The position numbers and the translations under genes were made by a program. Below, one piece after another: positions 1 to 13,668 of a stretch of 40,936 nt of DNA. The stretch lies in the IMG/VR virus record IMGVR_UViG_3300032320_002821, positions 1 through 40,936 of that record, one strand, 5' to 3'. Origin of the DNA: a virus. Its lineage: Duplodnaviria; Caudoviricetes. The notes beneath the pieces are model-generated. The model saw nothing but the letters and a program-made list of their open reading frames with translations. It searched no databases and had not been told where the DNA came from. How positions within the stretch are numbered: the first letter of the stretch is position 1; each line of letters starts with the position of its first letter.

Positions 1-2
1 AG

Positions 3-78
3 TGGAAGGGGCGGGAGTTGCACCCACATATTCACGCTTATAAGGCATGCGCTCTAACTACGATTCAGCCACCCTTCC
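3..78 (-). tRNA. trnI: tRNA-Ile (anticodon UAU)
   Basis: Reverse complement folds as a cloverleaf: acceptor GGAAGGG/CCCTTCC, anticodon arm CATGC-CTTATAA-GCGTG, T arm GTGGG-TGCAACT-CCCGC. CCA is not encoded. Confidence 0.9.
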
Positions 79-184
79 GTGGTGAAGCCTTCTTACGGAT
101 GCTTCCTCGTCCGTGCAACCGTAGGTTGCCTCTATGCGGTTGTTTTAGGTACCGCCAAACTGCATTAATAATATAACCATCTTG
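79..184 (-). ncRNA. candidate structured RNA or tRNA leader ending in a pseudoknot and ACCA
   Basis: Lies between a sigma70 promoter (191-218) and tRNA-Ile with no ORF. Hairpins GCGGT/ACCGC, GCAACC/GGTTGC and ACGGA/TCCGT; loop GAAGC is complementary to downstream GCTTC. Confidence 0.4.
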
Positions 185-190
185 ATTCAC

Positions 191-218
191 ATTGTAGCAC
201 CTCTTTTGGAGTTGTCAA
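191..218 (-). promoter_or_regulatory. sigma70-type promoter
   Basis: TTGACA-16 bp-TACAAT with TGn extended -10. Confidence 0.75.
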
Positions 219-361
219 GTCTCGGGGAAAGGAATCACGACCTGCAACATGCAGTCGTTGCACAGTTCGAATGCTTCCCAATCTTCACCACCGGGATAGT
301 CAATGCGAACCTTGGTCAGTTCTTCCTCAAACTCTTCGTTGCATCCGCAGCAAGTGTTCAC
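215..361 (-). CDS. small zinc-finger-like protein (48 aa; not in ORF track)
   Basis: GTG start overlaps the upstream TGA, with a GGAGG SD. MNTCCGCNEE...ELCNDCMLQ carries two CxxC pairs. Confidence 0.7.
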   Translation of the reverse strand: MNTCCGCNEEFEEELTKVRIDYPGGEDWEAFELCNDCMLQVVIPFPET

Positions 362-624
362 TTGCCGTCCTCCTTGAAGCAGTCCCAACCGCGAGACTCT
401 GCGAAGTGGAGCATGGTTCCATGCTTCACATATCCGCCCTCGTCCATAGCGGCATGCTCACAACACAGCCGCCTCGCCTCGTCGCGCTCGGCGCGGAGGG
501 TTGCGTTCTCGCGCTCCAGTTCACGGGCAAACTCTGCACGAACAATGAACTCCGACCGCAGACCGTCATCACTCCACCAGTTTGTTTCTGCTGCGTCGGT
601 GCGTGGTGTTTGGGTGTTGCTCAT
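358..624 (-). CDS. hypothetical early protein
   Basis: ATGA coupling with the upstream gene and GAGGAGG SD; TPRTDA N-terminus; ERDEARR..C...RGW motif shared with its neighbour. Confidence 0.8.
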   Translation of the reverse strand: MSNTQTPRTDAAETNWWSDDGLRSEFIVRAEFARELERENATLRAERDEARRLCCEHAAMDEGGYVKHGTMLHFAESRGWDCFKEDGK

Positions 625-914
625 TCGTCGTCCTCCTCAAGTAGGTAGCACCACCCACGGGCGGTAGCATGAAACTCTGGGGTGTCTCCATCACAACTCT
701 GTGTGACATTACGAGACAACATAAAGCAAACTTCCCGCCTCGCCTCGTCGCGCTCTTCACGGAGCCGTTCAATCTCCTTGATCGCGCAGTTGATGTAGTG
801 CGCTGCGGTCGCGGGGGAGTCGAAGTGTCCTCCGTCCTCAATGGTTGCGGCAATTTGCTGCAGTCGGGGGATGGGGTCGAAGTTGCTCATGTGTGCAGTT
901 AGAGGTGCGGGCAT
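621..914 (-). CDS. hypothetical early protein
   Basis: Leaderless promoter directly upstream; ERDEARR..C...RGW motif. Confidence 0.8.
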   Translation of the reverse strand: MPAPLTAHMSNFDPIPRLQQIAATIEDGGHFDSPATAAHYINCAIKEIERLREERDEARREVCFMLSRNVTQSCDGDTPEFHATARGWCYLLEEDDE

Positions 915-920
915 GGTTGC

Positions 921-949
921 ATTGTACCAGTTGGTGATGGGGTTGTCAA
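921..949 (-). promoter_or_regulatory. sigma70 early promoter, leaderless
   Basis: TTGACA-17-TACAAT-6 nt-ATG(914). Confidence 0.85.
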
Positions 950-960
950 GTGTCTTAGAA

Positions 961-968
961 TCTAAATA
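961..968 (+). promoter_or_regulatory. T4-type late promoter
   Basis: TCTAAATA 8 nt before the HNH ATG. Confidence 0.6.
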
Positions 969-976
969 TCTAAGAC

Positions 977-1363
977 ATGAAGAAATGCTCTACTTGCCAA
1001 TCGATCAAACCTCTCGCAGACTTTTACAAGAAAGGAAAGTCTGGTAGAACCAATAGTCTATGCAAGAAATGTTTTAACAAATTTTGCCAAGACAGATGGG
1101 TTCAGCGAAAGAAAGAGATGATTGAACTCCTTGGTGGAAAGTGTTGCAGGTGTGGTTACTCTAAGTGTTACGAGGCTTTAGAGTTTCACCACACAGATCC
1201 TGCAACCAAAAATTTTGATTGGAAAAAGGCGAGAGGGGTTTCTTATGACAAGATGGTTGCTGAGGTCAATAAATGTGACCTAGTTTGTGCCAACTGTCAT
1301 AGAGAAATACATTCAACGTTCCCGGTGGGAGTTGCACCCACACCACTCAATTTAGAAGATTGA
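977..1363 (+). CDS. HNH homing endonuclease-like protein
   Basis: N-terminal CxxC...CxxC, then CCRCGY...LEFHH.DP...KCDLVCANCHREIH HNH core. AT-rich and antisense to the tRNA cluster. Confidence 0.85.
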   Translation: MKKCSTCQSIKPLADFYKKGKSGRTNSLCKKCFNKFCQDRWVQRKKEMIELLGGKCCRCGYSKCYEALEFHHTDPATKNFDWKKARGVSYDKMVAEVNKCDLVCANCHREIHSTFPVGVAPTPLNLED

Positions 1364-1389
1364 TGCCCTGTCTATTAGGCTACGGGAAC
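1317..1389 (-). tRNA. trnR: tRNA-Arg (anticodon UCU)
   Basis: GTTCCCG/CGGGAAC acceptor; TCAAT-CTTCTAA-ATTGA anticodon arm; GTGGG-TGCAACT-CCCAC T arm. Confidence 0.9.
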
Positions 1390-1398
1390 TAGTCGAAA

Positions 1399-1471
1399 TA
1401 GCATCGGTGGGACTCGAACCCACACTTGATTGATTTTGAGTCAATTGACTCTGCCGTTGGTCTACGATGCC
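1399..1471 (-). tRNA. trnL: tRNA-Leu (anticodon CAA), short variable region
   Basis: GGCATCG/CGATGCT acceptor; ATTGA-CTCAAAA-TCAAT anticodon arm; GTGGG-TTCGAGT-CCCAC T arm. Confidence 0.9.
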
Positions 1472-1479
1472 ATGTGTTC

Positions 1480-1508
1480 ATTCTACTTCAGAAGTGGCCC
1501 CTTGTCAA
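1480..1508 (-). promoter_or_regulatory. sigma70 promoter for tRNA-Leu/Arg
   Basis: TTGACA-17-TAGAAT, 8 nt before the tRNA 5' end. Confidence 0.8.
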
Positions 1509-1755
1509 GTCCAAACTTGGCATGAAGTTCCTCATAGAACTCTCCGTTGGGTCGAACAACGGACTCATGCAGTCGGTTGCCATTGAGAGCAAGTTGGGCT
1601 GCGTCCACCGCGTCGAAGTAGGCGTCCATCAGTTCCTTCGGGGGATTGGCGTTGCCTTCCAACCAATGCTCCACGATGAGGTCTGCGACGATGTTGACGC
1701 GGTCGTACATCTGAAGGGCGAAGATTTGCGGATCGAAATGAAGTGGGTCTGTCAT
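1483..1755 (-). CDS. hypothetical protein (start corrected to MTDPLHF)
   Basis: The track start lies inside tRNA-Lys. The ATG at 1755 is 2 nt after the tRNA 3' end. Confidence 0.7.
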   Translation of the reverse strand: MTDPLHFDPQIFALQMYDRVNIVADLIVEHWLEGNANPPKELMDAYFDAVDAAQLALNGNRLHESVVRPNGEFYEELHAKFGLDKGPLLK

Positions 1756-1757
1756 AA

Positions 1758-1830
1758 TGGGTCCGGTGGGGTTCGAACCCACGACCAAGAAATTAAAAGT
1801 TTCCTGCGCTACCAACTGCGCTACGAACCC
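1758..1830 (-). tRNA. trnK: tRNA-Lys (anticodon UUU)
   Basis: GGGTTCG/CGGACCC acceptor; GGAAA-CTTTTAA-TTTCT anticodon arm; GTGGG-TTCGAAC-CCCAC T arm. Confidence 0.92.
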
Positions 1831-1839
1831 GTGATGCCC

Positions 1840-1868
1840 ATTGTAACCGATGGGCGCGGGATTTGCAA
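1840..1868 (-). promoter_or_regulatory. sigma70 promoter for tRNA-Lys
   Basis: TTGCAA-17-TACAAT. Confidence 0.8.
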
Positions 1869-1869
1869 G

Positions 1870-2229
1870 TCACTCCTCGTTTTCTTCCCCGCCGTCCAGT
1901 TCGCCGTCCGCGTACATCTGCTTCTCCTCGTCACAGGCGAAGTCCCGCGTCAGGCGGATCATGTCGTTGAGGAGCATCATGAACGCACCGCCGAACACAT
2001 GGCAGGTCGGCTCCTCACCTCGCTCCATGATCTCCTGCAAGTCGTTGTTCACATCGGCAACGATGTTGACGAGGATGAGGCGGATCGCCGGGTCGCAGTA
2101 CCAGTCCGGACGCTTGCTGACGAGGAGCATCAGACCGTGGATCTTCTGTTCGAAGGTCGGCTTGAACTTCTCGTCCTTGATGATGTTGGTCGGGTCGTTG
2201 AAGAAGTTTTCGAACTTGTTCTTGCTCAT
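1870..2229 (-). CDS. hypothetical protein
   Basis: ATGA-coupled to the upstream gene; GC3-rich codons. Confidence 0.8.
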   Translation of the reverse strand: MSKNKFENFFNDPTNIIKDEKFKPTFEQKIHGLMLLVSKRPDWYCDPAIRLILVNIVADVNNDLQEIMERGEEPTCHVFGGAFMMLLNDMIRLTRDFACDEEKQMYADGELDGGEENEE

Positions 2230-2462
2230 GTCATGCTTTCGTTGAGGGTCTTGCAGAGGTCGATCACGAACGCATACTCCTCGTCCGTGCAGCAGTTGGG
2301 GTCGGGGCAGGCGATCTTGAGGACGGAGAGGGCAATCGCCATCTTCGCCATCAGGTTGGAGTCCTCGTTCCAGTTCGGGTTGTCATCCACGAACTTGTAG
2401 ATCTCGTTGAGGAGGTCGCTCGTATCGGTGGTGGTCGGGGTCGTGGGGCGGTGCTTGCTCAT
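2226..2462 (-). CDS. hypothetical early protein
   Basis: Leaderless promoter 2469-2497. Confidence 0.8.
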   Translation of the reverse strand: MSKHRPTTPTTTDTSDLLNEIYKFVDDNPNWNEDSNLMAKMAIALSVLKIACPDPNCCTDEEYAFVIDLCKTLNESMT

Positions 2463-2767
2463 AGGGCTATTTTAGCAGATTCGGAGGCGGAATGCAAGAC
2501 CACGGCGTAGAAATGTTTGATTTGTTTCGTGAGGCGGATGAAGAGGTCGATCTGGTTCTTTGAGGTGTCCTCCGGAAACTCCACGATGTAGGTGAAGTTG
2601 TCGATGCCGAAGGTCGTGCTCACATCAAGCGTGAGCAGAATGCCCGTGTCGCCCGGGAACGCGAGAGCCAAGGCATGGAGGATGCTCCTCGTACACTTCT
2701 TGTGTCTGCGGGTTGTCCATCCACGGCTCGAGGTTCCGGGGAACGCGGCTAGTGCCTTAACGATCAT
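2459..2767 (-). CDS. hypothetical protein
   Basis: ATGA-coupled to 2764..2997 with a GAGGA SD. Confidence 0.7.
   Translation of the reverse strand: MIVKALAAFPGTSSRGWTTRRHKKCTRSILHALALAFPGDTGILLTLDVSTTFGIDNFTYIVEFPEDTSKNQIDLFIRLTKQIKHFYAVVLHSASESAKIAL
2469..2497 (-). promoter_or_regulatory. sigma70 early promoter, leaderless
   Basis: TTGCAT-17-TAAAAT-6-ATG(2462). Confidence 0.8.
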
Positions 2768-2997
2768 CCGAAGTCCTCCTCGTCAACGAAGTCCGGAATG
2801 TCCTTGTCGTTGTCATCGAAGCAGTACTCGTCATCATCAGCGTCGTACTCGCCAGCCATGCGCTTGGCTTCCTCCTCGCTGTAGCCCTCCGCGATCAGTT
2901 CCGCCACGAAGTCCTCGTCGTTGAAGGAGTCATCGTAGGGGATGAGGTCGAAGGGGCTGTCGGTGTCGATGTCGTTGGTGTCGGGTGAATTGCTCAT
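2764..2997 (-). CDS. highly acidic small early protein
   Basis: 30 D/E versus 3 K/R in 77 aa; leaderless promoter. Confidence 0.85.
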   Translation of the reverse strand: MSNSPDTNDIDTDSPFDLIPYDDSFNDEDFVAELIAEGYSEEEAKRMAGEYDADDDEYCFDDNDKDIPDFVDEEDFG

Positions 2998-3003
2998 GCG
3001 TGC

Positions 3004-3032
3004 ATTGTAACCGATGATCCGGGGGGATGCAA
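3004..3032 (-). promoter_or_regulatory. sigma70 early promoter, leaderless
   Basis: TTGCAT-17-TACAAT-6-ATG(2997). Confidence 0.85.
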
Positions 3033-3081
3033 GTCTATGCGAAGATTTTTTTTCTTATCGGACGCTCGAGGTCGTCCAGGA

Positions 3082-3139
3082 CTACTATCCGGCAGGTGGC
3101 GCAAAACATCCGGAGTCCCCCAAGGACTCCGGATAGTAG
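3082..3139. repeat. nested inverted-repeat element, copy 1
   Basis: CTACTATCCGG...ATCCGGAGTCC-cccaa-GGACTCCGGAT-AGTAG. Confidence 0.9.
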
Positions 3140-3336
3140 CTCAAAGAACATGACCCGCCCTAAAGAGGAACGGGTCAGAGGTTTGAAAGGCACAGCCATC
3201 CTTTCGTGCCGGAGCCAGTTGCACCTGGCGCCAGTTTCCAACCGAGTATCCGGTCAAGGTTGGGTGACTGTATTTGTTTAGTCTCCCTCCCTGCCCCCTT
3301 GCGGGGGCAGGGAGGGCGTCCCATGCCCTATGGGAC
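3140..3336 (-). ncRNA. candidate multi-hairpin RNA or structured 3' UTR
   Basis: About six consecutive stems, including a 14-bp stem with a GCAA tetraloop on the minus strand. No credible ORF. Confidence 0.35.
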
Positions 3337-3337
3337 T

Positions 3338-3712
3338 TTAGCACACCGCGCCGAACTTCGCAAAGTGTGCCGTGTACGCTCGCTCCACGACCTGCTCAAG
3401 CGGGGCAATCGGGCGATTGCCTTCCCGCACCGCAGTCTCCGCTGCCTTCGCGTAGAACGACAGGTTCTCGCTGTGGATCATGTCGATGAACTTCTTGCTG
3501 TCGCCGTACAGCACCTCCACGATGGCGAGGACGAGAGCCGCCTCCTCCTTCGTGAACCAAGACGGCGGGAAGGAGACTGCGATCTCGCACATGGCGAGGG
3601 TCGCGTTCGTCTCCTCGCTGTTGGCGCGGATGCGGTCGATCTGCTTGCCGCAGGAGGCGAGGGCGGCGACGAGGTCGGTGACTTCTGCGAGACGGTTCGG
3701 GGTGTTGCTCAT
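3338..3712 (-). CDS. hypothetical early protein
   Basis: Leaderless promoter 3719-3747. Confidence 0.85.
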   Translation of the reverse strand: MSNTPNRLAEVTDLVAALASCGKQIDRIRANSEETNATLAMCEIAVSFPPSWFTKEEAALVLAIVEVLYGDSKKFIDMIHSENLSFYAKAAETAVREGNRPIAPLEQVVERAYTAHFAKFGAVC

Positions 3713-3718
3713 GGGCGT

Positions 3719-3747
3719 ATTGTACCAGTTCGGGGAGCGGAATTCAA
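3719..3747 (-). promoter_or_regulatory. sigma70 early promoter, leaderless
   Basis: TTGAAT-17-TACAAT-6-ATG(3712). Confidence 0.85.
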
Positions 3748-3763
3748 CTCGGGCGAGAAGAAT

Positions 3764-4042
3764 TTAAAAGAATTCGCTGTACGAGAGAGCCTGCGATTCG
3801 TGGAAGGAGATCCAGTCCCGCTTCTCAAGGTCGTACATCACGACCATGCCAGCCGGAACGCTCCGGACATACTTCGGCAGTTTGTCGTTCGGGATGTATT
3901 CCTGATTCGTGGTCACGAACGCCTCGCGCTCGGTTCCGTCCTTCTTTCTGAACAGAACCTTGATGCGCTTGCCGGAGGAGAGGGAGAAACGGATCTCGTC
4001 GGAGATTTCCTTCGGAGTGAAGGTGGGGAGCAGGGGAGTCAT
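3764..4042 (-). CDS. WYL_2/DUF2693-like SH3 beta-barrel protein
   Basis: V.F.KKDG..R....T...IP...YDLEK..W.SF signature; AAGGA SD. Confidence 0.8.
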   Translation of the reverse strand: MTPLLPTFTPKEISDEIRFSLSSGKRIKVLFRKKDGTEREAFVTTNQEYIPNDKLPKYVRSVPAGMVVMYDLEKRDWISFHESQALSYSEFF

Positions 4043-4055
4043 GGTTGTCCTTTTG

Positions 4056-4301
4056 TTAGGCTTTGAGGCGGCGGTCGATGCAGATGGACAGGGCTTCGTC
4101 CAGTTCGCGGTAGTCCTTGATCGCGTTGGTGAAGGTGTCCGGGTCGATCTTCGTCCCGGTGTTGTTGTGCCGGATGCAGACCTGCTCCATGAGCAGCATG
4201 ATTCCGCAGAGGCGACCGTAGAGGTACGCGTAGCGCTGTCCGGGATCCTGAAAGGAGCAGATCTTGGTGACGGTCGGGGAGTCGGTGGTGGTGGTGCTCA
4301 T
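4056..4301 (-). CDS. hypothetical early protein
   Basis: Leaderless promoter 4308-4336. Confidence 0.85.
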   Translation of the reverse strand: MSTTTTDSPTVTKICSFQDPGQRYAYLYGRLCGIMLLMEQVCIRHNNTGTKIDPDTFTNAIKDYRELDEALSICIDRRLKA

Positions 4302-4307
4302 GGGTGT

Positions 4308-4336
4308 ATTGTATCAGGTGTTCGGGGCGAATGCAA
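4308..4336 (-). promoter_or_regulatory. sigma70 early promoter, leaderless
   Basis: TTGCAT-17-TACAAT-6-ATG(4301). Confidence 0.85.
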
Positions 4337-4375
4337 CTCGGGGCGAAAGATTTTTGAGGATTTTTGTGGGCCGGG

Positions 4376-4780
4376 TCACTTCGTGTATGACCCGCTCCCG
4401 TACTTGGCGTTCCAGTCCTGCGCGAGGGCTTCGACCCGGCTCATGAAAGCGGCGGGGCAGTCCATGCGGAGGGTCACGATGTTCCCGTCCTCGTGACCTG
4501 CGAGGATCGCATCCCCCATGAGCGGGATCCCGGCGATGATCGACGCACGGGTGTTCATCAGATTCTGCTTCATGGCTCCCTCCTCATCGACCCACAGGGC
4601 AACGGGGGCATCGGTGGAGGCGAGTCGAGCGAGGCACTCCACATAGTCGCAGTTAAGGAGGGAGTACATGTCGCGGAGCGGGTTGTCGCTGATCAGCGGC
4701 ACGACACGGATCGGCTGCTCCATGTTGGCGGGGATGAGGAGGGCGATGACGGGGGAGGCGTTGGAGGTGGTGCGGGGCAT
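4376..4780 (-). CDS. DUF3846-like protein
   Basis: L..MY.LL.C..VE...LWVDEEG....N.RAS....L.GD.IL.G pattern. Confidence 0.75.
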   Translation of the reverse strand: MPRTTSNASPVIALLIPANMEQPIRVVPLISDNPLRDMYSLLNCDYVECLARLASTDAPVALWVDEEGAMKQNLMNTRASIIAGIPLMGDAILAGHEDGNIVTLRMDCPAAFMSRVEALAQDWNAKYGSGSYTK

Positions 4781-4786
4781 GCGTAG

Positions 4787-4815
4787 ATTGTAACCGATGG
4801 GGCTCGAGAATTCAA
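4787..4815 (-). promoter_or_regulatory. sigma70 early promoter, leaderless
   Basis: TTGAAT-17-TACAAT-6-ATG(4780). Confidence 0.85.
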
Positions 4816-4864
4816 CCGGGGGGAACGGAATTTCTTAGAAATATTTGAGGGCGTCCGGGGGCGA

Positions 4865-4931
4865 CTACTATCCGGCCGCGTCCGATAAAACGGGGAGTCC
4901 GGGTGCCCCCGTGGGGGCACCCGGATAGTAG
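4865..4931. repeat. nested inverted-repeat element, copy 2
   Basis: CTACTATCCGG...TCCGGGTGCCCCC-gt-GGGGGCACCCGGA-TAGTAG. Confidence 0.9.
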
Positions 4932-4933
4932 CC

Positions 4934-5074
4934 CTACCCTCCTCGGGCTACCTCCCGCTTTCCCTCCCTCCTCAATGCTCGAGGATCGCGGGTCTTCTTG
5001 CCCCAGGTCTTGGGTCGGAGGCGGATTCCCTCGCGGAAAGCCTCATGCACGAATCGTCCGGGTCGGTGGTTCAT
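4934..5074 (-). CDS. small basic protein (46 aa; not in ORF track)
   Basis: ATG 1 nt after the upstream TGA; MNHRPGRFVHEAFREGIRLRPKTWGKKTRDPRALRREGKREVARGG fills the gap exactly. Confidence 0.6.
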   Translation of the reverse strand: MNHRPGRFVHEAFREGIRLRPKTWGKKTRDPRALRREGKREVARGG

Positions 5075-5075
5075 G

Positions 5076-5603
5076 TCAGTCCGCCTTTCCGCGAATGAGG
5101 ATCCAAATCAGCGCCTGCATCACGGCGGGCTGGTAGCCGTAGTCGGCAGCGACCATCCGCACCGCCTCCGCGATCTCCCGGTACTCGCGCTTATTCGGCG
5201 CGTCCTTGCCCAGTCCGGCAGCGCGGCACATCCACACATCCACGACCACGGCATTCATGTCGCCGCTGATGGCACGGGCGAAGGCGTTGGTCTTAAGCCC
5301 GTTCAGCCCGTCGAACCCCATCCGGACGCAACGGTCGGCGGCAACGACATGGGAGCGGAGTCCCTTCGGCGTGGTGCCCTGCGCGTACTGCTGCGCCTTC
5401 ACCTTATTGTGCGCCCAAGTGACGCGGGGCGAGAATGCGGAGACAACGCTGCACGCCACTTCGAGGTTCCATCCGGTGCTGTCGCGGAGCGACTGCGCGA
5501 ACCGGGAAGCCTCACCGTACCAACGCTCGGCAGCGTAGTAGTCGAAGAGGGTAGCGGACGAGAGGAGGGACGAGAAACGGGCGGCGTAGGTGGTGCTGTT
5601 CAT
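5076..5603 (-). CDS. conserved phage protein with HhH-GPD glycosylase-like motifs (start MNSTTY)
   Basis: WY...SAFSPR..W..N...GLKT..F...VVVDVWM.RAA...QA..W; leaderless promoter. Confidence 0.7.
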   Translation of the reverse strand: MNSTTYAARFSSLLSSATLFDYYAAERWYGEASRFAQSLRDSTGWNLEVACSVVSAFSPRVTWAHNKVKAQQYAQGTTPKGLRSHVVAADRCVRMGFDGLNGLKTNAFARAISGDMNAVVVDVWMCRAAGLGKDAPNKREYREIAEAVRMVAADYGYQPAVMQALIWILIRGKAD

Positions 5604-5609
5604 GCGTGT

Positions 5610-5638
5610 ATTGTAACCGATCCCGATGCGGAATGCAA
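5610..5638 (-). promoter_or_regulatory. sigma70 early promoter, leaderless
   Basis: TTGCAT-17-TACAAT-6-ATG(5603). Confidence 0.85.
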
Positions 5639-5700
5639 CCCGGTGCAAAAAAATTTCTTATATTCTCGTTATCGGGCTCGAGGCGTCCAGGTGCGGGGGA

Positions 5701-5763
5701 CTACTATCCGCCCAGGGCGCGACCAGTCCCATAGCATCCGGCAGCTCCGCTGCCGGATAGTAG
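5701..5763. repeat. nested inverted-repeat element, copy 3
   Basis: CTACTATCCG...ATCCGGCAGC-tcc-GCTGCCGGAT-AGTAG. Confidence 0.9.
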
Positions 5764-5796
5764 TAAAGCCCCCCGACCCAACGTAGGGCCGAGGGG

Positions 5797-5817
5797 GTTA
5801 CTGGCACCACCCAGTTA
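5797..5817. repeat. 21-nt exact direct repeat (second copy at 6756-6776)
   Basis: GTTACTGGCACCACCCAGTTA occurs twice. Confidence 0.95.
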
Positions 5818-6075
5818 GGTCTTGAGGGGCATACCCATGCCCTCCCGGAGTCCGGCGCGGTAGGCGTGAATCAGGTCGAGCAGTTCCCGCTTGCTGCGGT
5901 AGCCCGTGGTCACGGACTCGTTCCCTCCGGACGGGTGAATCCTCTGCAACTGCCAACCACCGTAGGCTCCTGCTAGAATGTACGATCCGGGCTGGTGGGC
6001 GACCGGGTTCGCTCCGACCATTTGGTTGAGGATGCGGACGGCGGAGTTGAGTTCGATCTTGGTGGTGCGCTTCAT
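5815..6075 (-). CDS. hypothetical early protein
   Basis: Leaderless promoter; GAYGGWQL...GY.SKREL motif. Confidence 0.85.
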   Translation of the reverse strand: MKRTTKIELNSAVRILNQMVGANPVAHQPGSYILAGAYGGWQLQRIHPSGGNESVTTGYRSKRELLDLIHAYRAGLREGMGMPLKT

Positions 6076-6081
6076 GACTTT

Positions 6082-6110
6082 ATTTTATCCTTTCTTGTCC
6101 GGGGATTCAA
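6082..6110 (-). promoter_or_regulatory. sigma70 early promoter, leaderless
   Basis: TTGAAT-17-TAAAAT-6-ATG(6075). Confidence 0.8.
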
Positions 6111-6155
6111 GGGGGCGGGAGAGATTTCTCTCAATCCCGCCCCCCTATCCGGGGG

Positions 6156-6545
6156 TCAGTCCTTCGGGGTCGCTCCGGGCTTGCGGCGGTTCTGATCGAA
6201 CTGGTCATCCCGGCTGTCGATCCAGTTCGCGGTGGCGAGCATCATGTACGCCATCGACCGCAGTTCCGAGGGGGAGAGTGCCATGCGGACGGCTTCCCCG
6301 TCCAGTCCCCGGAAGACCATCAGCGCACCGTGGTGGGGCAGGGCGTGGGTGCGAACCGAGTAGGGACCGACCGGAGCGATGAAGGCAGCGCCACGGTGGT
6401 ACTTGAACTGGACGCGGGTGTAGTTGCTGCGGTTGGCGATGGTGCAGTCACCGATGGTCAGGTTGCGCTCCGCGCTGCGGAGGTTGTCGATGATGCGGGA
6501 GGGGGAGAGGACGATGTCGATGGGGCTGTGGTAGGTGGTGCTCAT
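6156..6545 (-). CDS. hypothetical early protein (start MSTTYHS)
   Basis: Leaderless promoter 6552-6580 defines the start. Confidence 0.85.
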   Translation of the reverse strand: MSTTYHSPIDIVLSPSRIIDNLRSAERNLTIGDCTIANRSNYTRVQFKYHRGAAFIAPVGPYSVRTHALPHHGALMVFRGLDGEAVRMALSPSELRSMAYMMLATANWIDSRDDQFDQNRRKPGATPKD

Positions 6546-6551
6546 GCGCAC

Positions 6552-6580
6552 ATTGTAACCGATGGCGGGTGAGAATGCAA
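6552..6580 (-). promoter_or_regulatory. sigma70 early promoter, leaderless
   Basis: TTGCAT-17-TACAAT-6-ATG(6545). Confidence 0.85.
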
Positions 6581-6636
6581 GCGGGGGCAAAGAAATTTCT
6601 TTCTTTCTGGTTATCGGGCGGGGGCCTGGGCCTGGG

Positions 6637-6697
6637 CTACTATCCGGCTCGAGGACCATCCCATAACATCCGACGCCCTGTGGGCGTCGGATAGTAG
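6637..6697. repeat. nested inverted-repeat element, copy 4
   Basis: CTACTATCCG...ATCCGACGCCC-tgt-GGGCGTCGGAT-AGTAG. Confidence 0.9.
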
Positions 6698-6703
6698 TCC
6701 CCC

Positions 6704-6785
6704 CAAACAGCCTAGCCCCGAACGAATCGGGGCAGGGAACGAATCCTCTTCGGCTGTTACTGGCACCACCCAGTTATTTGGTGCC
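6704..6785 (-). ncRNA. candidate early small RNA
   Basis: Full promoter upstream but no ATG at +1. 5' hairpin GGCACCA/TGGTGCC, then an AACAGCC/GGCTGTT-closed junction carrying two GATTCGTTC hairpins. Confidence 0.6.
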
Positions 6786-6790
6786 CCGGT

Positions 6791-6819
6791 ATTATACCAG
6801 ATCGGGTGCGAGAATGCAA
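6791..6819 (-). promoter_or_regulatory. sigma70 promoter of the ncRNA candidate
   Basis: TTGCAT-17-TATAAT with TGG extended -10. Confidence 0.85.
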
Positions 6820-6821
6820 GT

Positions 6822-6865
6822 GGGGGAGAGAAACAATTAGAACTAATAGATTGTTTCTCTCCCCC
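6822..6865 (-). terminator. 16-bp hairpin after the WYL_2 gene, overlapping the next promoter's upstream region
   Basis: GGGGGAGAGAAACAAT...ATTGTTTCTCTCCCCC; no clear U tract. Confidence 0.5.
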
Positions 6866-6872
6866 CTTGGGG

Positions 6873-7226
6873 TTAGTGGTTGTTCTCGGGCGCGTCCGCC
6901 GGGATCACCACGGCGCGCAGATCCTCCACGCACAGGGAGCGGATGCCCCCGGCGATGTAGTCGAAGTAGACGAGCGGGGTCGCGTCGAAGTCCTTATCGG
7001 ACTTGCGGATCGCCTCCGCATCGGAGTGGTTGCCGAACGCACCCACGAGCGTGGGGTTCCGGGTGGCGAGCCGGGTCACGACCTTGCCGTCACCCTTGCG
7101 GTAGGTGAGTTCGACCCACCCGTTGGCGAGGAGGGACATCACCTCGTTCGTGCGGGTGAAGAGGTTCGCGGAGATGGGGAAGCCGATGCCGTTGCAGACG
7201 ATGCCGTTGCGGGTGGTGGTGCTCAT
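6873..7226 (-). CDS. WYL_2/DUF2693-like protein (start MSTTTRN)
   Basis: VELTYRKGDG...RLATRNP...YFD....IRS signature; leaderless promoter. Confidence 0.75.
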   Translation of the reverse strand: MSTTTRNGIVCNGIGFPISANLFTRTNEVMSLLANGWVELTYRKGDGKVVTRLATRNPTLVGAFGNHSDAEAIRKSDKDFDATPLVYFDYIAGGIRSLCVEDLRAVVIPADAPENNH

Positions 7227-7232
7227 GGAAGT

Positions 7233-7261
7233 ATTGTACCACAACGCGAGTGAGAATGCAA
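7233..7261 (-). promoter_or_regulatory. sigma70 early promoter, leaderless
   Basis: TTGCAT-17-TACAAT-6-ATG(7226). Confidence 0.85.
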
Positions 7262-7347
7262 GCCCTCTCAAAGAAATTTCTTAAAGTTTGTTATGGGACT
7301 CTCGAGCACCGCGAAAGAAATTTCTTTCAGAGGGCTTGCATTCTCAC
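7250..7347. repeat. 33-bp inverted repeat (32/33 identical) at the strand switch
   Basis: 7250-7282 versus the reverse complement of 7315-7347. Confidence 0.95.
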
Positions 7348-7364
7348 GGCAGGTGTGGTATCAT
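7336..7364 (+). promoter_or_regulatory. sigma70 early promoter, leaderless
   Basis: TTGCAT-17-TATCAT-6-ATG(7371). Confidence 0.85.
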
Positions 7365-7370
7365 GCACGC

Positions 7371-7697
7371 ATGCCCAACAGCACCACCCACAACCACGAA
7401 CACGAACACTTCCCCTGCCAGTGCCACCGCCCCGAGTACGCCTACGATGACCGCCCGTGCCCATCCTGCGAGGAGCAGCAGGAGCGGGAGCGCGAGGCGA
7501 AGCGCGAGGCCAAGCCCACGGGCTCCCGTGAGAACCGATGGGAGATCGCCGGGTACGGCGAGGAGCGCAAGGCGCAGGATGACGCGGAGCGCGATGCCGA
7601 CAACCAAGCGTTCAGCGATGCGGCTAGCCGGATGAGCCGCGAGGACTGGGACGCCGACAACGACTGGCTAGCGAGTGCGGGATGGGGCGAGATGTAA
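7371..7697 (+). CDS. hypothetical early protein (start MPNSTT)
   Basis: CxC...CxxC, a charged helix and a C-terminal LASAGWG. Confidence 0.85.
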   Translation: MPNSTTHNHEHEHFPCQCHRPEYAYDDRPCPSCEEQQEREREAKREAKPTGSRENRWEIAGYGEERKAQDDAERDADNQAFSDAASRMSREDWDADNDWLASAGWGEM

Positions 7698-7722
7698 AGC
7701 CCACCGCCTAACCCCAAGCCAC

Positions 7723-7753
7723 CCACCGCCCCCGAATGGGGGCGGTGGTGTTT
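7723..7753 (+). terminator. intrinsic terminator-like hairpin
   Basis: CCACCGCCCCC-gaat-GGGGGCGGTGG-TGTTT. Confidence 0.65.
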
Positions 7754-7775
7754 ATAGAAATTTCTTTCGACGCGC

Positions 7776-7804
7776 TTGCATATGGCTGGCCGTTGTGGTA
7801 TCAT
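7776..7804 (+). promoter_or_regulatory. sigma70 early promoter, leaderless
   Basis: TTGCAT-17-TATCAT-6-ATG(7811). Confidence 0.85.
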
Positions 7805-7810
7805 GTGGGC

Positions 7811-8026
7811 ATGTGCACCACCACTACCGTTTCTTCCCCCTCGCCCTCTTGCTGCGTCTGCGGCGCTGATCACGTGGATGACCGGGTTCGCCCCACGCCC
7901 GAGGGCGCCATGTGCGTCATGTGCGTTGAGGACATCAGGGCCGACATGTGCGCTGACGCGCATGAGCGTTCGATGGGTTACGAAGGGGACGATGACCCCT
8001 ACTGGGAGCAACACGCGGAGGGCTAA
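7811..8026 (+). CDS. small zinc-finger protein with acidic tail (start MCTTTT)
   Basis: CCVC...CVMC; leaderless promoter. Confidence 0.8.
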   Translation: MCTTTTVSSPSPSCCVCGADHVDDRVRPTPEGAMCVMCVEDIRADMCADAHERSMGYEGDDDPYWEQHAEG

Positions 8027-8040
8027 CCCTCCCAGCCCCC

Positions 8041-8075
8041 AATGCCTGCCCCGAAGGGGCAGGCATTGTTGTTTT
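8041..8075 (+). terminator. intrinsic terminator
   Basis: AATGCCTGCCCC-gaa-GGGGCAGGCATT-GTTGTTTT. Confidence 0.8.
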
Positions 8076-8419
8076 CAAATTTATTTGAAGGTCGATTTGA
8101 GCGTGTCCAAACAGTGATTTGGGTCCCATTTAGGAATCCTGTTATCGGACGAGCTAGCCCCCACCCTCTCCAATTTTCTCAAAAATTCTATAAATTTTTC
8201 AAAATACCTCATATGCCTTAAAAATTTTCCGGGCCCCATAGCCCTCCAAAACCCTTCTGTAGAGCCCTACGATTGACGGAGAGCGATTCTTTGTTTCTTT
8301 TAGGGTCCCAGAGCCTCCTTTAGGGTCTGGAGCCCCTTGAAGGCAAAAACGCCATATACAGAAAAAATTCTGGGCCCCGGAGAGGCCCAGAAAGTTTATC
8401 TAAAAATTTTAAAGCTTTA

Positions 8420-9085
8420 TTAACCGTGCTTCTTCTTCAGTGCCTGACCGATGGAGTGAATGAGATCACCCTTGTGTTCTTCTTCTTGTTCCATTACGTG
8501 ATCTTCGTACCAATCGCTTTCGAATGGGTCAGCTCCCCCTGATCTTTCCATGGCATCGTCATATGATTTCATTTCAAGTGCACTGTTTCCTTGGATGGCA
8601 TGTGGGTGAATTGCCTCTACGGCTGCGCTTACGGATGTGAAGGGAGCTTGCTTGTGAGTATTGAGAATTTCCCTTGCGTGTGCCTCGGATCTCTTTGCGT
8701 TTGGTGCTTGCGATCCGGGACCGGCGGTCAAGTGAGGGAACTTTGTGACGTGCTGGGCCACGATCTCGTCAACGATGGAGTTGTGTGCGGCCTGGGGGTC
8801 CAGTCCGGCGAGAGGTGCGTCGATCTCTCTTTGATAGCCACGCTCGTCTGCTGCTTCGGCTCTGGCGAACAATGCTCTGCCTCTCATCTCGGTTGGGCTT
8901 GTGTACGGGGATTGGCCTGTTCCGATCAGTGCGCTGAAGGCTTTGTCTCTTGCTCTGTTGATGACTTGGCGTCTTCCGGGGGTCATTCCACCGGGATAGG
9001 CTTCATTGAGCATTTGCTGAAGATTATTAACTCTCTCTTGGAGTTGTTCCGATAGATTCTTGTAGTAGTTTGTTAGATAGTCCAT
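8420..9085 (-). CDS. hypothetical late protein, possible internal head protein (start MDYLTNYY)
   Basis: TATAAATA-5-ATG; N-terminus shared with 9156..9662. Confidence 0.8.
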   Translation of the reverse strand: MDYLTNYYKNLSEQLQERVNNLQQMLNEAYPGGMTPGRRQVINRARDKAFSALIGTGQSPYTSPTEMRGRALFARAEAADERGYQREIDAPLAGLDPQAAHNSIVDEIVAQHVTKFPHLTAGPGSQAPNAKRSEAHAREILNTHKQAPFTSVSAAVEAIHPHAIQGNSALEMKSYDDAMERSGGADPFESDWYEDHVMEQEEEHKGDLIHSIGQALKKKHG

Positions 9086-9090
9086 GAGAA

Positions 9091-9098
9091 TATTTATA
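9091..9098 (-). promoter_or_regulatory. T4-type late promoter
   Basis: TATAAATA, 5 nt before the ATG. Confidence 0.8.
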
Positions 9099-9155
9099 AA
9101 AAAATTTCGGTCCAAAAAGGCCCGAAAAATTTATTGTGAGATTTTTAAGTTTTAT

Positions 9156-9662
9156 TTAGTATTGAGTTGATGGAGAGACAATTGTAGTTTCTGGAGAATT
9201 TTGTCCATATCTTCCTCGCATTACATCAACGGCAGTTCGCATTTGTGCTGGCAGTGCTCTACCCATTTCTGGATAATCTTTTACTGAACCAAACAAGGAA
9301 GCCGATGACCTCGGATTGACTCTTTCACCCATTGCATGTTGTGCAAAACTATATTCAATATCGTTTCCCGGAAATTTTACGTTAACATCATCAATGTCTG
9401 CCAAAACTCTCTGTACAGCTGCCACGTGTGCTGGGTTTTGGTGAATTGGGTGGGATTTGTCTGAAAGCGCAGACCTTAATTGTTCTACGTCTACTTTTCT
9501 TTTAAGACCTTGACCATAGGCACTAATCGGCGCACCAGAATCTCTAGCTTTGCTTGCTGTTAAAAATTTTCCTTCGGGGCTGTAAATTTGAGCTTCGAGT
9601 AGATTTATTTTTTCTTGAAGTTGTTCGCAAAGATTTTTGTAGTAGTTTGTCAGATAATGCAT
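9156..9662 (-). CDS. hypothetical late protein, possible internal head protein
   Basis: MHYLTNYYKNLCEQLQE leader; TATAAATA-5-ATG. Confidence 0.8.
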   Translation of the reverse strand: MHYLTNYYKNLCEQLQEKINLLEAQIYSPEGKFLTASKARDSGAPISAYGQGLKRKVDVEQLRSALSDKSHPIHQNPAHVAAVQRVLADIDDVNVKFPGNDIEYSFAQHAMGERVNPRSSASLFGSVKDYPEMGRALPAQMRTAVDVMRGRYGQNSPETTIVSPSTQY

Positions 9663-9667
9663 AAAAT

Positions 9668-9675
9668 TATTTATA
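9668..9675 (-). promoter_or_regulatory. T4-type late promoter
   Basis: TATAAATA, 5 nt before the ATG. Confidence 0.8.
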
Positions 9676-10045
9676 AAATTTGCACACCTTCGTCATTGGT
9701 GTAGTAAATTTTATAGAATGCTTCCTCGCACCACTTGGCACAGACGGGGCAGGGCTTTGAGTTCCTGAAGTGTCCGAATCGATTGAACCGAAAGTTCAAA
9801 AGAATCAATTTTTCACCGCGCATGTTCTTGGGAACTTTTCTCCATGCATCCAATTCAGAATGCATTTCTGCACAACGGTATCCCAAACGAAAAGAATCGG
9901 GGTGGGTCTTAAAAATATTTTGACCCACCGCGATTATCTTTCGCTTATGGATGACCAGCGATATGTGCTTCTTCTGCCTTTCCATTGCCATCGATAGAGG
10001 CTTGGCAATGGGAACAAAATTTTCAATCACATGCTGGATATTCAT
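9671..10045 (-). CDS. cytidine/dCMP deaminase-superfamily protein
   Basis: HSE and SKPCPVC zinc motifs. Confidence 0.8.
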   Translation of the reverse strand: MNIQHVIENFVPIAKPLSMAMERQKKHISLVIHKRKIIAVGQNIFKTHPDSFRLGYRCAEMHSELDAWRKVPKNMRGEKLILLNFRFNRFGHFRNSKPCPVCAKWCEEAFYKIYYTNDEGVQIL

Positions 10046-10046
10046 A

Positions 10047-10355
10047 TTACGTCGTCAGCTTCAGCTTGCTCAAGGGATCAACTCCCTTGGAAGGGGTCAC
10101 GATGCCCTTGTTGAGACTTGCATCATACTGGCTCTTGAGTTCTTCGAGAGGCTCGACAGTAAATGCAACAAATGACTTAGCGACTTCAACGCCCTTTGCT
10201 GCCTTTGTGTACATCATCCAAGGCATTAGACCAATCTGGCCCTGACCGACTGGAACAAGAATTGCAGCATCCTTTAGGATGTAGGAGGTGTCCTTTTCCT
10301 CAAATCGTGCGAGAATTTCTTCACCAGAGTTTAGTCTAAATACTTTTACGTTCAT
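10047..10355 (-). CDS. Sm-like fold protein typical of T4-like phages
   Basis: VKVFRL.SGEEI.A...IGL.PW...Y...F/L...I..P pattern; AAGGA SD. Confidence 0.65.
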   Translation of the reverse strand: MNVKVFRLNSGEEILARFEEKDTSYILKDAAILVPVGQGQIGLMPWMMYTKAAKGVEVAKSFVAFTVEPLEELKSQYDASLNKGIVTPSKGVDPLSKLKLTT

Positions 10356-10422
10356 TGTGGTTCCTTTTTAAATGGTAAGAGCAAGTATAATATCAATTTT
10401 TTTAATAGCAAGCATCATTTCC

Positions 10423-11226
10423 ATGAAATCATTTAAAAGTTTTTTACTAGAGCAAAATACTAACAATTATGTTACCTCTTTATACAGAGCTCTTATTTCT
10501 GCTGAACACAGAGGCGTTGTTAAAGATCCTACAAAGTTTGATAAAAAACTTTATATAAGAACAAAATATAAACCAAAAGATGACATATCCACTGCATATG
10601 GTCCAGGTCAAATTACGGGAACCACGATAGAAGATGCACGCAAACGGCGCCCTGAAAATTTTTCTAAAGACGATGATGAATTTTTAAATGCTTTTGTTCA
10701 ACAGGGCAAAAAAATGAAAGCTGCCAAGCCTGATGATAAAACCTACGGTTATGGATGTGAAGGTGATTTGTGTGATGAAAAATATCATGAACCGTATGAG
10801 CGCGCTGCGGTAGGAGTTTTGAAAACAAAATTACAAGATGCTAAAATTGATCCAACCCAAGAATTGACCGCAGACAATTTAACTAAAGCAATACGCAGAT
10901 GGCGTGGAGCTCCAGAAAATGATGAGACAACAAAATCTGGTAAAGTAGTAAAGGGTGACCCCGAATATTATAAAATTGTTAGAAAAAAATATGAAGAATA
11001 TTTTGCTTCAAAAAAACCAACGCCGACAGTAACAGCGGAACCAAAACCAGAACCAAGCACAAATACGGAAACTGCACCACCAAACAATGAGTATACAATT
11101 GCTCCCGGGGATACATTCTGGGATCTTGGTGGTGGAACTCCAGCTGGTGTAAAAAAACTCCAAGACTTAAATCCTGGAGTTAACCCAAATAAAATTAAAC
11201 CGGGTCAAAAAATCAAAAGAGGTTAA
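10423..11226 (+). CDS. lysozyme/transglycosylase-like protein with C-terminal LysM (start MKSFKSFLLE)
   Basis: AE...STAYGPGQIT motif; YTIAPGDTFWDL...LQDLNPGVNPNKIKPGQKI LysM after a P/T linker. Confidence 0.75.
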   Translation: MKSFKSFLLEQNTNNYVTSLYRALISAEHRGVVKDPTKFDKKLYIRTKYKPKDDISTAYGPGQITGTTIEDARKRRPENFSKDDDEFLNAFVQQGKKMKAAKPDDKTYGYGCEGDLCDEKYHEPYERAAVGVLKTKLQDAKIDPTQELTADNLTKAIRRWRGAPENDETTKSGKVVKGDPEYYKIVRKKYEEYFASKKPTPTVTAEPKPEPSTNTETAPPNNEYTIAPGDTFWDLGGGTPAGVKKLQDLNPGVNPNKIKPGQKIKRG

Positions 11227-11783
11227 AATGGTAGGGGTTCTTCAATAACTTCAGCAGTCTTTGATACCCACCACTCCGGTTCCTCGGAGTAATTCCACGC
11301 CGCAAACCGGGACTTCTCGTTAAGATAATAACTGCGGTAAGCAACAACGGCATTCTCATGTTGGTACTGCTCAGGCATTGCCTGTGCAAACTTAGTAAGT
11401 TTGGCCTTGGTAATGTTAACCGGAGGATCGTAAAGTTCATCAAGAAGCATGGACTCCATCTTATGCACCTTACCATATCGGCGGGTGTATTCCTTGCAGA
11501 GAGCATATGCATGCCGCCACAACCAAATGTAGTTTGCCCGAGTCTCACGTGCCCAAATTGTGCAAGGATGATTGATCATCGTAGCCTTGCAGATGTTCTT
11601 CTTGGTGCAGATGTACGACTTGAACTTGCGCTTGCCGGTATTGACGATCAATTCGTCACCATCAAGAACATGGTGAGCGGTTGAAAGCAATTGGCAAGAT
11701 TCAACAACCATTTTACACACATGTTTATCACACATCATACGAGCCGAAGTAGCTGCATCATTATCTAGTACAAATATGTTCAT
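11223..11783 (-). CDS. pyrimidine-dimer DNA glycosylase (DenV/Pyr_excise)-related protein
   Basis: MNIFVLD...CDKHV.KM..E..QLLST...NHPC..W...NY.WL...AYR.YY. Confidence 0.75.
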   Translation of the reverse strand: MNIFVLDNDAATSARMMCDKHVCKMVVESCQLLSTAHHVLDGDELIVNTGKRKFKSYICTKKNICKATMINHPCTIWARETRANYIWLWRHAYALCKEYTRRYGKVHKMESMLLDELYDPPVNITKAKLTKFAQAMPEQYQHENAVVAYRSYYLNEKSRFAAWNYSEEPEWWVSKTAEVIEEPLPF

Positions 11784-12277: not shown

Positions 12278-12335
12278 ATAATTATTTAGATAAACACATT
12301 TTTTTATATGCTTATCACACAAATAATACACGAAT

Positions 12336-12370: not shown

Positions 12371-12408
12371 CGGACCAAAGATGCTATCTTTGGTGGGGTT
12401 AAAGTTAT

Positions 12409-13659: not shown

Positions 13660-13668
13660 CAGATATAT

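What the first reader, a model, noticed from the sequence alone, without database searches (positions are those of the whole stretch)
3082..6697. Four nested inverted-repeat elements with a covarying inner hairpin delimit early gene cassettes
Seen: four 58-67 bp elements (3082-3139, 4865-4931, 5701-5763, 6637-6697) share the layout CTACTATCCG - 15-25 nt spacer - (A)TCCG-N-loop-N'-CGGA(T) - AGTAG. The outer 10-bp arms are invariant. The inner stem differs in sequence in every copy (GAGTCC/GGACTC, GGTGCCCCC/GGGGGCACC, GCAGC/GCTGC, ACGCCC/GGGCGT) yet is always perfectly paired. The right-hand CGGAT can pair with either the inner or the outer arm, so two mutually exclusive folds exist. Related half-sites (TTATCGG, TCCCATA(A/G), CCGATAA) lie in and beside the elements and also at 7291 and 8141. 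Each element sits between a gene block's 3' end and the next promoter. Known context: T4-type phages carry promoter-early stem-loop (PeSL) cassettes linked to module shuffling, and integron attC sites are structure-conserved hairpins. Inference: these are structure-recognised sites for cassette recombination, for a phage protein, or for control of DNA entry or replication. I do not recognise this element.
Basis: partly seen in the sequence, partly recalled or inferred. Interest (0 to 1): 0.85.

Follow-up and report, generated by a model that had tools for sequence, protein, structure and literature searches.

The report
Boxed DNA palindromes beside Xer half-sites
A group of lake-water T4-like phages carries, at fixed spots between its early gene units, short DNA palindromes flanked by a constant 9-letter word and often by a copy of one arm of the host's chromosome-resolution site, which likely serve as docking points for a still unidentified phage protein rather than as gene-shuffling sites.

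Summary
The four elements are real. They belong to a family: 76 distinct copies in 25 records, plus 65 more in metagenomes, at about six fixed sites per genome, all with one polarity. The box R-CTACTATC-M is conserved as sequence; outer arms do not pair beyond it. The inner stem is a DNA-type palindrome (0-3 nt centre, almost no G-T, no RNA tetraloops), unlike the terminators beside it. Box variants switch genome-wide in several lineages. A lone box sits in a repeat array at the island's end. Gene shuffling is no higher at elements than at plain promoters; no recombinase was found. Best reading: docking sites for a phage protein on extrudable hairpins, likely opening DNA for replication (0.4). 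No Rfam or literature match beyond PeSLs. This scan noted the family, and Xer half-site fields, before on other DNA.

The parts
3082..3139 (.). Element E1 (orthologous site 4 of 6): promoter-side box 3082-3091, spacer, palindrome 3108-3134 overlapping the gene-side box 3130-3139
4865..4931 (.). Element E2 (site 5): palindrome 4898-4925 with a 2-nt centre; starts 2 nt after the stop of a 46-aa ORF, with no separate terminator
5701..5763 (.). Element E3 (site 6 type): palindrome 5736-5758
6637..6697 (.). Element E4 (extra site 6 type copy): palindrome 6668-6692
3055..3063 (-). Motif B, identical to the XerC-side arm of the planctomycete dif-like site, beside E1
4880..4888 (+). Motif B inside the E2 spacer
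5669..5677 (-). Motif B with one mismatch, beside E3
6611..6619 (-). Motif B with one mismatch, beside E4
7291..7299 (-). Motif B variant between the divergent early promoters
8142..8150 (-). Motif B at the right end of the GC-rich island
3004..3032 (-). sigma70-type early promoter after E1; ATG 6 nt after the -10 box (likely leaderless)
   Evidence: family D1; sequence
4787..4815 (-). Early promoter after E2
5610..5638 (-). Early promoter after E3
6552..6580 (-). Early promoter after E4
3143..3177 (-). Intrinsic terminator (hairpin plus U tract) just before E1
5766..5799 (-). Hairpin with G-T pairs just before E3
6702..6778 (-). Conserved structured RNA-like unit ending just before E4
4934..5074 (-). 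Conserved 46-aa ORF whose stop abuts E2
   Evidence: sequence; family 5 (15 records)
1500..8000 (.). GC-rich (55-65%) early-gene island of a T4-like myophage; the rest of the window is 27-47% GC in most 500-base bins

Best explanation
Each element is a DNA site made of two head-to-head copies of a constant box and a variable but perfect palindrome, and it likely docks an unidentified phage-encoded protein on a hairpin that would extrude beside a strong early promoter, most likely to open or nick the DNA and start replication from the early island. Steps: (shown) fixed position between a unit's 3' end and the next promoter, one polarity, sequence-conserved box, DNA-type palindrome that begins inside the gene-side box, a lone box in a repeat array at the island's end, and host XerC-type half-sites at two preferred distances from the promoter. 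(Inferred) Polymerase leaving the promoter supercoils the DNA behind it negatively, while the upstream terminator keeps polymerase off the site, so the palindrome extrudes; the protein binds the box at the hairpin base. (Speculative) The opened or nicked site loads the phage helicase or starts T4-type recombination-dependent replication, the end array being the main origin; host XerC on lone arms would act as an architectural or roadblock factor, not as a recombinase.
For: DNA-type stems: centre gap of 3 nt or less in 55 of 73 vs 4 of 46 neighbouring upstream hairpins; central UUCG/GNRA 0 of 73 vs 11 of 46; G-T pairs 4 of 921 vs 17 of 504 (Fisher p 3e-13, 1e-5, 2e-5, copies not independent). 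Independent set: gap of 3 or less in 53 of 65, G-T 0 of 752. Inner pairing 73-76 of 76 at positions 9-13, with three or four pair types at each. Palindrome on the gene side in 77 of 95, compact or both sides in 11, promoter side only in 0, none by the strict test in 7. Promoter-side position 9 is uniform within 20 of 22 records (shuffled mean 8.6, maximum 14 in 5000), and the CCG type falls at four separate places on a marker tree, as expected if a genome-encoded partner co-evolves. A lone box lies 348-458 bp beyond the last element in 15 records, with 2-7 motif B copies before it and 1-6 GGACRGGA near it. G004 keeps tandem boxes at the same slots, two of three without an inner palindrome. Paired boxes: 0 of 301 planctomycete genomes, 1 weak case among 53 matches in 185,579 genomes. 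Four of the distant phage loci examined carry clusters of canonical DnaA boxes in the promoter-upstream slot, and L455 has both motifs.
Against: No partner protein identified: no residue tracks the box type in 6 of 8 island families, and the 2 hits in 2302 columns (both in the VWA-like protein) are unconvincing; the 76-aa island protein gave only weak winged-helix-like matches (Z 5.5 or less). Nothing here tests replication. Six origins in 12 kb is unusual, and cumulative GC skew shows no clear switch at the array. 39 of 76 stems are followed by 5 or more T in 8 nt, as terminators are. G004 shows the palindrome can be lost. Perfect palindromes can be kept up by template switching without selection for structure (own knowledge). 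The box gives only two DnaA-trios where three are needed.
Confidence: 0.4

Rival explanations
1. Transcription control: the boxes are operators for a phage regulator that shuts off, activates or insulates six early units, and the palindrome is a second terminator or a roadblock.
For: Always between a 3' end and a promoter. Promoter-side box 51-124 nt from the -10 box in 64 of 99 elements. Motif B lies 54-56 nt (12) or 62-68 nt (25) from the -10 box in 39 measurable cases, about one helical turn apart. T tract after 39 of 76 stems. At site 5 the palindrome is the only hairpin after the gene. Paired motif B also sits at promoter-like sites in four planctomycete chromosomes.
Against: Loops and pairing are not RNA-like. 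Many early promoters and all rightward ones lack boxes. Phasing of the box to -10 is weak (R 0.16-0.27 at all periods tried). The lone box in the end array is not explained.
Confidence: 0.27
2. Cassette recombination sites (first reader; PeSL- or attC-like) that excise, insert or swap early gene blocks.
For: They border blocks in a hypervariable island; neighbours differ from the majority at 28 of 65 and 23 of 67 element junctions. PeSLs mediate such shuffling (PMC2839356, PMC4122927). Genome-wide box changes could come from exchange between elements. XerC-type arms lie beside many.
Against: Element-free promoter junctions vary as much or more (26 of 57, 29 of 53, rough gene calls). Sites are fixed and orthologous. 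None of the 15 of 60 joints and 8 replaced joints shown lies in an element. No PF00589, PF01797 or PF16684 in G001-G005 (records incomplete). Only 1 of 147 motif B sites has TTAT 6-8 nt away. Box-to-box length varies 46-84 nt.
Confidence: 0.1
3. DNA-handling signals during entry or nucleoid capture: polar boxes and XerC half-sites recruit or block host machines (SMC/Wadjet, FtsK) on the first-expressed DNA.
For: One polarity towards the end array. Motif B is concentrated in the island (e.g. G001 13 in 14 kb vs 6 in 103 kb; G002 11 in 12.8 kb vs 5 in 113.5 kb). A Xer protein unloads SMC at non-dif sites in Bacillus (PMC11894783, passage). GGACRGGA is strand-biased in the island.
Against: T4-type terminase implies random ends (own knowledge; G001-G005 classed linear, no end repeats). 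No twofold depth over the island in the likely source run (not a valid copy-number test). GGACRGGAY showed no obvious strand bias in the listed sites of G042.
Confidence: 0.13
4. Ordinary PeSL spacers: tandem terminators with by-products of duplication and template switching, with no partner protein.
For: All parts of a PeSL are present. The palindrome is dispensable in G004.
Against: An 8-mer fixed in all boxed loci picked by gene rather than by box (18 of 18 DUF7178 loci at 63% or more, 16 of 16 AAA loci at 75% or more carry boxes, many being the same contigs). Concerted switches. Lone box in the array.
Confidence: 0.07

Closest known systems
PeSL promoter-early stem-loop cassettes of T4-type phages (PMC2839356, PMC4122927)
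   Same: Terminator, AT-rich tract and sigma70-type promoter between ORFans of a hyperplastic region.
   Different: PeSLs as described have one GC-rich stem-loop. Here a second, DNA-type palindrome with inverted constant boxes is added, at fixed sites only, with Xer-type arms, and without excess shuffling.
Chromosomal dif site, XerC/XerD (PMC3025954); IntA att site of Rhizobium etli (PMC4928290)
   Same: Motif B equals the arm before the 6-nt centre in the planctomycete dif-like site and matches the IntA arm.
   Different: Lone arms, many copies, no partner arm (1 of 147), no phage tyrosine recombinase found. The box itself is neither arm.
XerD/XDS unloading of SMC in Bacillus subtilis (PMC11894783, passage citing Karaboja 2021)
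   Same: A Xer protein acting at sites other than dif, without recombination.
   Different: That is XerD on a chromosome terminus; here the arm is the XerC-side one on phage early DNA, and binding is untested.
Basal unwinding system: DnaA-box plus DnaA-trios (PMC8287927)
   Same: The box strand holds two 3'-GAT-5' repeats after a GC-rich stretch; other phages have DnaA boxes in this slot.
   Different: Only two trios, no canonical DnaA box within 16 bp in this clade, and boxes come in inverted pairs.
Integron attC; rolling-circle double-strand origins; T5 injection-stop signal (recalled, not read)
   Same: Structure conserved while inner sequence varies; sequence box next to an extrudable hairpin.
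   Different: No extrahelical bases, no integrase or Rep gene found, several genes per interval.

Membership tests
PeSL | sigma70-like early promoter with AT-rich upstream tract | tested here: met
   64 of 99 elements have a -10 box plus ATG within 200 nt
PeSL | Terminator-type stem-loop upstream of the promoter | tested here: met
   upstream hairpins are RNA-like; E2 has only the inner palindrome
PeSL | Located in a hyperplastic region before ORFans | tested here: met
PeSL | Recombination between motifs, mini-circles | tested here: inconclusive
   junction variability equals that of plain promoters; only contigs were available
Intrinsic terminator (inner stem) | RNA-type stem-loop (stable tetraloops, G-U tolerated) | tested here: not met
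   0 of 73 tetraloops, 4 of 921 G-T; 0 of 752 G-T
Intrinsic terminator (inner stem) | U tract after the stem | tested here: inconclusive
   5 or more T of 8 in 39 of 76, 3 or fewer in 29 of 76
dif / IMEX attP | XerC-side arm | tested here: met
   motif B equals the arm in the dif-like site of 96 of 151 planctomycete genomes; binding untested
dif / IMEX attP | XerD-side arm 6-8 bp away | tested here: not met
   1 of 147 distinct sites has TTAT there
Integron attC | Cognate tyrosine integrase | tested here: inconclusive
   PF00589 0 of 5 records, 58-76% complete
Integron attC | Extrahelical bases in the folded strand; one site per gene cassette (recalled) | tested here: not met
   914 of 921 pairs are Watson-Crick; one to several genes between elements
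DnaA basal unwinding system | At least three NAN trios | tested here: not met
   the box gives two; criterion from PMC8287927
DnaA basal unwinding system | DnaA box within 16 bp | tested here: not met
   none beside the window's boxes; canonical boxes seen only in L455 and distant phages
REP/RAYT or IS200/605 ends | Y1 HUH transposase | tested here: inconclusive
   PF01797 0 of 5 incomplete records
Protelomerase site | Telomere resolvase gene | tested here: inconclusive
   PF16684 0 of 5 incomplete records
Rfam RNA families | Covariance-model match | tested here: not met
   window 1-12000: only tRNAs above threshold, no hit at E up to 1 on any element
Replication origin | Nascent-strand start or initiator binding | not testable with these tools
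   GC skew uninformative

The most novel reading that the evidence does not exclude
A lytic T4-like phage of planctomycetes builds a 12-kb polar track of cruciform-docking sites for its own protein, interleaved with lone arms that capture the host's XerC and ending in an iteron-like array: an undescribed phage system that co-opts a chromosome-segregation recombinase, without recombination, to start replication or to shield incoming DNA from host SMC-type machines.
Probability: 0.22. Interest if true: 0.88.

Novelty: new variant of a known kind. Interest (0 to 1): 0.63.

Why it matters
Origins and cis-signals of environmental T4-like phages are almost unknown. This gives a sharply defined, testable site (box variants, palindrome, array) in an abundant lake phage group. 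It links that site to lone arms of the host dif site, which hints at a non-recombinational use of Xer proteins by lytic phages. It also gives a host lead (Planctomycetota among five phyla tested) for a group with no cultured member found in the phage collection (best portal match 49%; no DNA match to E1).

Tried and rejected
Rfam: nothing on the elements. Cultured phages: no match to 3040-3200. Host REP-like element: 53 pattern matches in the bacterial and archaeal collection, 1 with a weak off-register palindrome; 0 of 301 and 0 of 4 planctomycete genomes. Motif B as a divergent DnaA box: absent as a cluster near dnaA in 15 loci, so dropped in favour of the dif arm. GGACRGGAY as a KOPS-like word: both strands in the listed host sites, list cut, inconclusive. 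Terminal repeat: depth 12-16 in the island vs 8.6-12 outside in the likely source run, confounded by GC and not a copy number. RNA: one RNA-library contig stops at 3140, another study's at 6701, and one runs through the E2 palindrome to 4890; contigs cannot show ends and the stops are at different places, so no weight. Partner search: families shared by boxed genomes and missing in G005 gave no obvious DNA-binding enzyme; Pfam on 93 G004 proteins and 30 island or window proteins, and PHROGs on 60 window proteins, showed no recombinase or Rep; the 76-aa island protein folded well (pLDDT 85) but had no clear match. A multi-copy insertion element in planctomycete G142 begins with the exact 10-nt box (19 of 21 hits fetched); four further homologous ends share only the last 5-7 letters and others none (L559 aside, at 94% identity). 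Its 518-aa protein has no family, a failed model (pLDDT 37) and no homologue in G000-G004: kept as a lead only. Host clue from the ferritin-like protein: none. Literature: no description of the element in searches; subscription papers and supplements were not seen, so cyanophage promoter-motif papers may bear on novelty.
Full report
Setting. The window is a 41-kb piece of a T4-like myophage: gp32, gp33, baseplate, neck, terminase, sheath, tube and portal genes; best cultured portal match 49%; the runs that hold it are mostly lake and freshwater metagenomes. Bases about 1500-8000 form a GC-rich island of small genes, many behind a repeated sigma70-type promoter with the ATG 6-7 nt after the -10 box.

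Observation. Confirmed in full; details are in the observation check. The two folds share the variable stem and differ by 4-5 pairs.

Family. The exact pattern hit 9 loci in 5 viral contigs. Filtering for a stem gave 84 elements, 76 distinct, in 25 records including the window. A metagenome scan (also cut) gave 129 distinct matches, 73 with a palindrome, 65 of them new. Picking loci by gene instead of by box, all 18 DUF7178 loci at 63% identity or more and all 16 AAA-ATPase loci at 75% or more carry boxes. Many of these are contigs already found; L449, L452, L455, L467 and L476 are new. None of 6 and none of 7 more distant loci has a box pair.

Anatomy, in the direction of transcription: gene end; usually a terminator or structured RNA; R-CTACTATC-M; a palindrome whose 5' arm starts at the A, T or C of that box; a 4-46 nt spacer; the inverted box; often motif B; AT-rich tract; promoter. 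The base before the gene-side box is a purine in 76 of 76. Inner pairing is 73-76 of 76 at positions 9-13; outer pairing is 64, 47, 19, 23 and 14 of 76 at the same positions. So the outer repeat is a sequence word and the inner one a structure. Variants: compact forms, where both boxes flank the palindrome and one box has T changed to A at position 2; G004, with tandem boxes and mostly no palindrome; five site-2 copies with a tandem G-A mismatch.

DNA, not RNA. Inner stems have centres of 0-3 nt in 55 of 73, no central UUCG or GNRA, and 4 G-T in 921 pairs. Upstream hairpins from the same loci have 4 of 46, 11 of 46 and 17 in 504. The independent set agrees (53 of 65; 0 of 752). Against this, 39 of 76 stems are followed by a T-rich tract. 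Copies are related, so the p values overstate the case.

Layout. Relatives have about six elements at orthologous junctions over about 10 kb, all in the left-transcribed arm and with one polarity. The window holds sites 4, 5, 6 and an extra site-6 copy, and lacks the left end. In 15 records a lone box follows the last element by 348-458 bp, inside an array of motif B, GGACRGGA repeats and AT-rich tracts; three other lone boxes are elements cut by contig ends. Rightward early promoters have no boxes in the records that cover them.

Not a shuffling hot spot. With rough gene calls in 22 records (13 partial or near-duplicate records left out), the neighbour differs from the majority at 28 of 65 and 23 of 67 element junctions, 26 of 57 and 29 of 53 plain-promoter junctions, and 26 of 93 and 33 of 101 operon junctions. 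The joints shown in strain contigs lie at promoters, gene starts and gene ends (45 further joints not shown). One strain has a 249-nt insertion at 5075, away from any element. No tyrosine recombinase, Y1 transposase or telomere resolvase rang in G001-G005, which are 58-76% complete.

A genome-encoded partner is likely. The promoter-side box variant is uniform within 20 of 22 records (shuffled mean 8.6; some records are close kin). The CCG type occurs at four places on a marker tree, three of them as sister to A-type genomes (deep nodes are weak). Ten-base homology is short for gene conversion (own knowledge), so co-evolution with a protein is the simpler reading. I did not find that protein.

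The half-sites. Motif B is concentrated in the island of all five long records. It lies within 90 nt of 56 of 99 elements, 50 of them in one orientation, and 54-56 or 62-68 nt from the -10 box in 37 of 39 cases. The pattern GTCYBRTAA-N6-TTATG occurs, mostly once, in 96 of 151 genomes of the phylum of G006 (record title Gemmataceae, so Planctomycetota); the backwards control occurs in about 27 by my count of the table. Other phyla: 1 of 61, 4 of 61, 7 of 61 and, with a stricter pattern, 1 of 41 for the phyla of a Chloroflexi, an Acidimicrobiaceae, a Nitrosomonadales and a Trichormus record. In G145 the best site lies about 110 kb from the point opposite dnaA-dnaN, as dif should. Calling this arm XerC's rests on the dif layout (PMC3025954, passages; that study failed to predict a planctomycete dif) and on recall. 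The same arm is in the IntA att site (PMC4928290, passages). In the phage, 1 of 147 arms has TTAT 6-8 nt away, so these are half-sites. Four distant phage loci carry canonical DnaA boxes (consensus recalled) in the promoter-upstream slot, and L455 has both words: borrowing host chromosome words before early promoters recurs.

Mechanism. Shown: geometry, DNA-type palindrome, constant box, concerted change, end array, Xer-type arms. Inferred: extrusion driven by transcription from the adjacent promoter, and binding by a phage protein. Speculative: opening or nicking for replication (0.4). Rivals: transcription control (0.27), DNA entry or SMC handling (0.13; precedent PMC11894783, passage), cassette recombination (0.1), neutral PeSL by-product (0.07).

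Known kinds. The whole spacer qualifies as a PeSL (PMC4122927, parts 1-2 of 3 read; PMC2839356 and PMC4503421, passages). The boxed palindrome is an added part that fails the tests for terminator-type stem, attC, full dif and DnaA unwinding module (PMC8287927, passages). No Rfam hit; no description found in searches, which miss most subscription papers. This scan noted the same family twice on other DNA and Xer half-site fields in two other phages. I reached the dif reading before seeing the latter. Verdict: real, new variant of the PeSL kind, function open; interest 0.63.

Noticed in passing
window 6702-6778 (-): Conserved structured RNA-like unit (small hairpin plus a three-way junction with TTCG loops) before site 6 in 12 aligned copies; 5 of 20 pairs show two-sided changes. 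No Rfam hit. In the window it has its own promoter at 6791-6818.
   Followed up: partly
window 79-206 (-): Non-coding stretch 5' of tRNA-Ile, 71-85% conserved in relatives, behind a promoter at 191-218; possible small RNA.
   Followed up: no
window 8420-9085 and 9156-9662 (-): Two unrelated late genes share an N-terminal peptide (family D8), repeated in relatives; resembles the capsid-targeting sequence of T4 internal proteins (recalled).
   Followed up: no
window 9668-13994: Block inverted relative to the island end in L010, L011, L017, L026, L027, L030, L031, L034; same orientation as the window in L024.
   Followed up: no
L457, L458, L460, L461: Distant phages with 7-12 canonical DnaA boxes in head-to-head clusters upstream of early promoters.
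   Followed up: partly
G198, G145, G215, G181 (L506-L517): Planctomycete chromosomes with paired direct XerC-type arms 20-22 bp apart at promoter-like sites, 10 of the 13 fetched; suggests a regulatory role for a Xer-type protein.
   Followed up: partly
L549 240-1796 (G142): Multi-copy insertion element without terminal inverted repeats, inserted after ..GT, with a 518-aa protein of no Pfam family; one end begins with the phage box word.
   Followed up: partly
L533-L538: A dif-like site for Planctomycetota in 96 of 151 genomes, where an earlier prediction had failed (PMC3025954).
   Followed up: partly
window 8100-8420: Conserved AT-tract and GGGCCC repeat zone at the right end of the island (72-92% in relatives); function unknown.
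   Followed up: no
window 3764-4042, 6873-7226, 13669-14226: Three paralogues of one PHROG family (phrog_1086), WYL_2-like by Pfam for the one tested; candidates for nucleic-acid binding.
   Followed up: no
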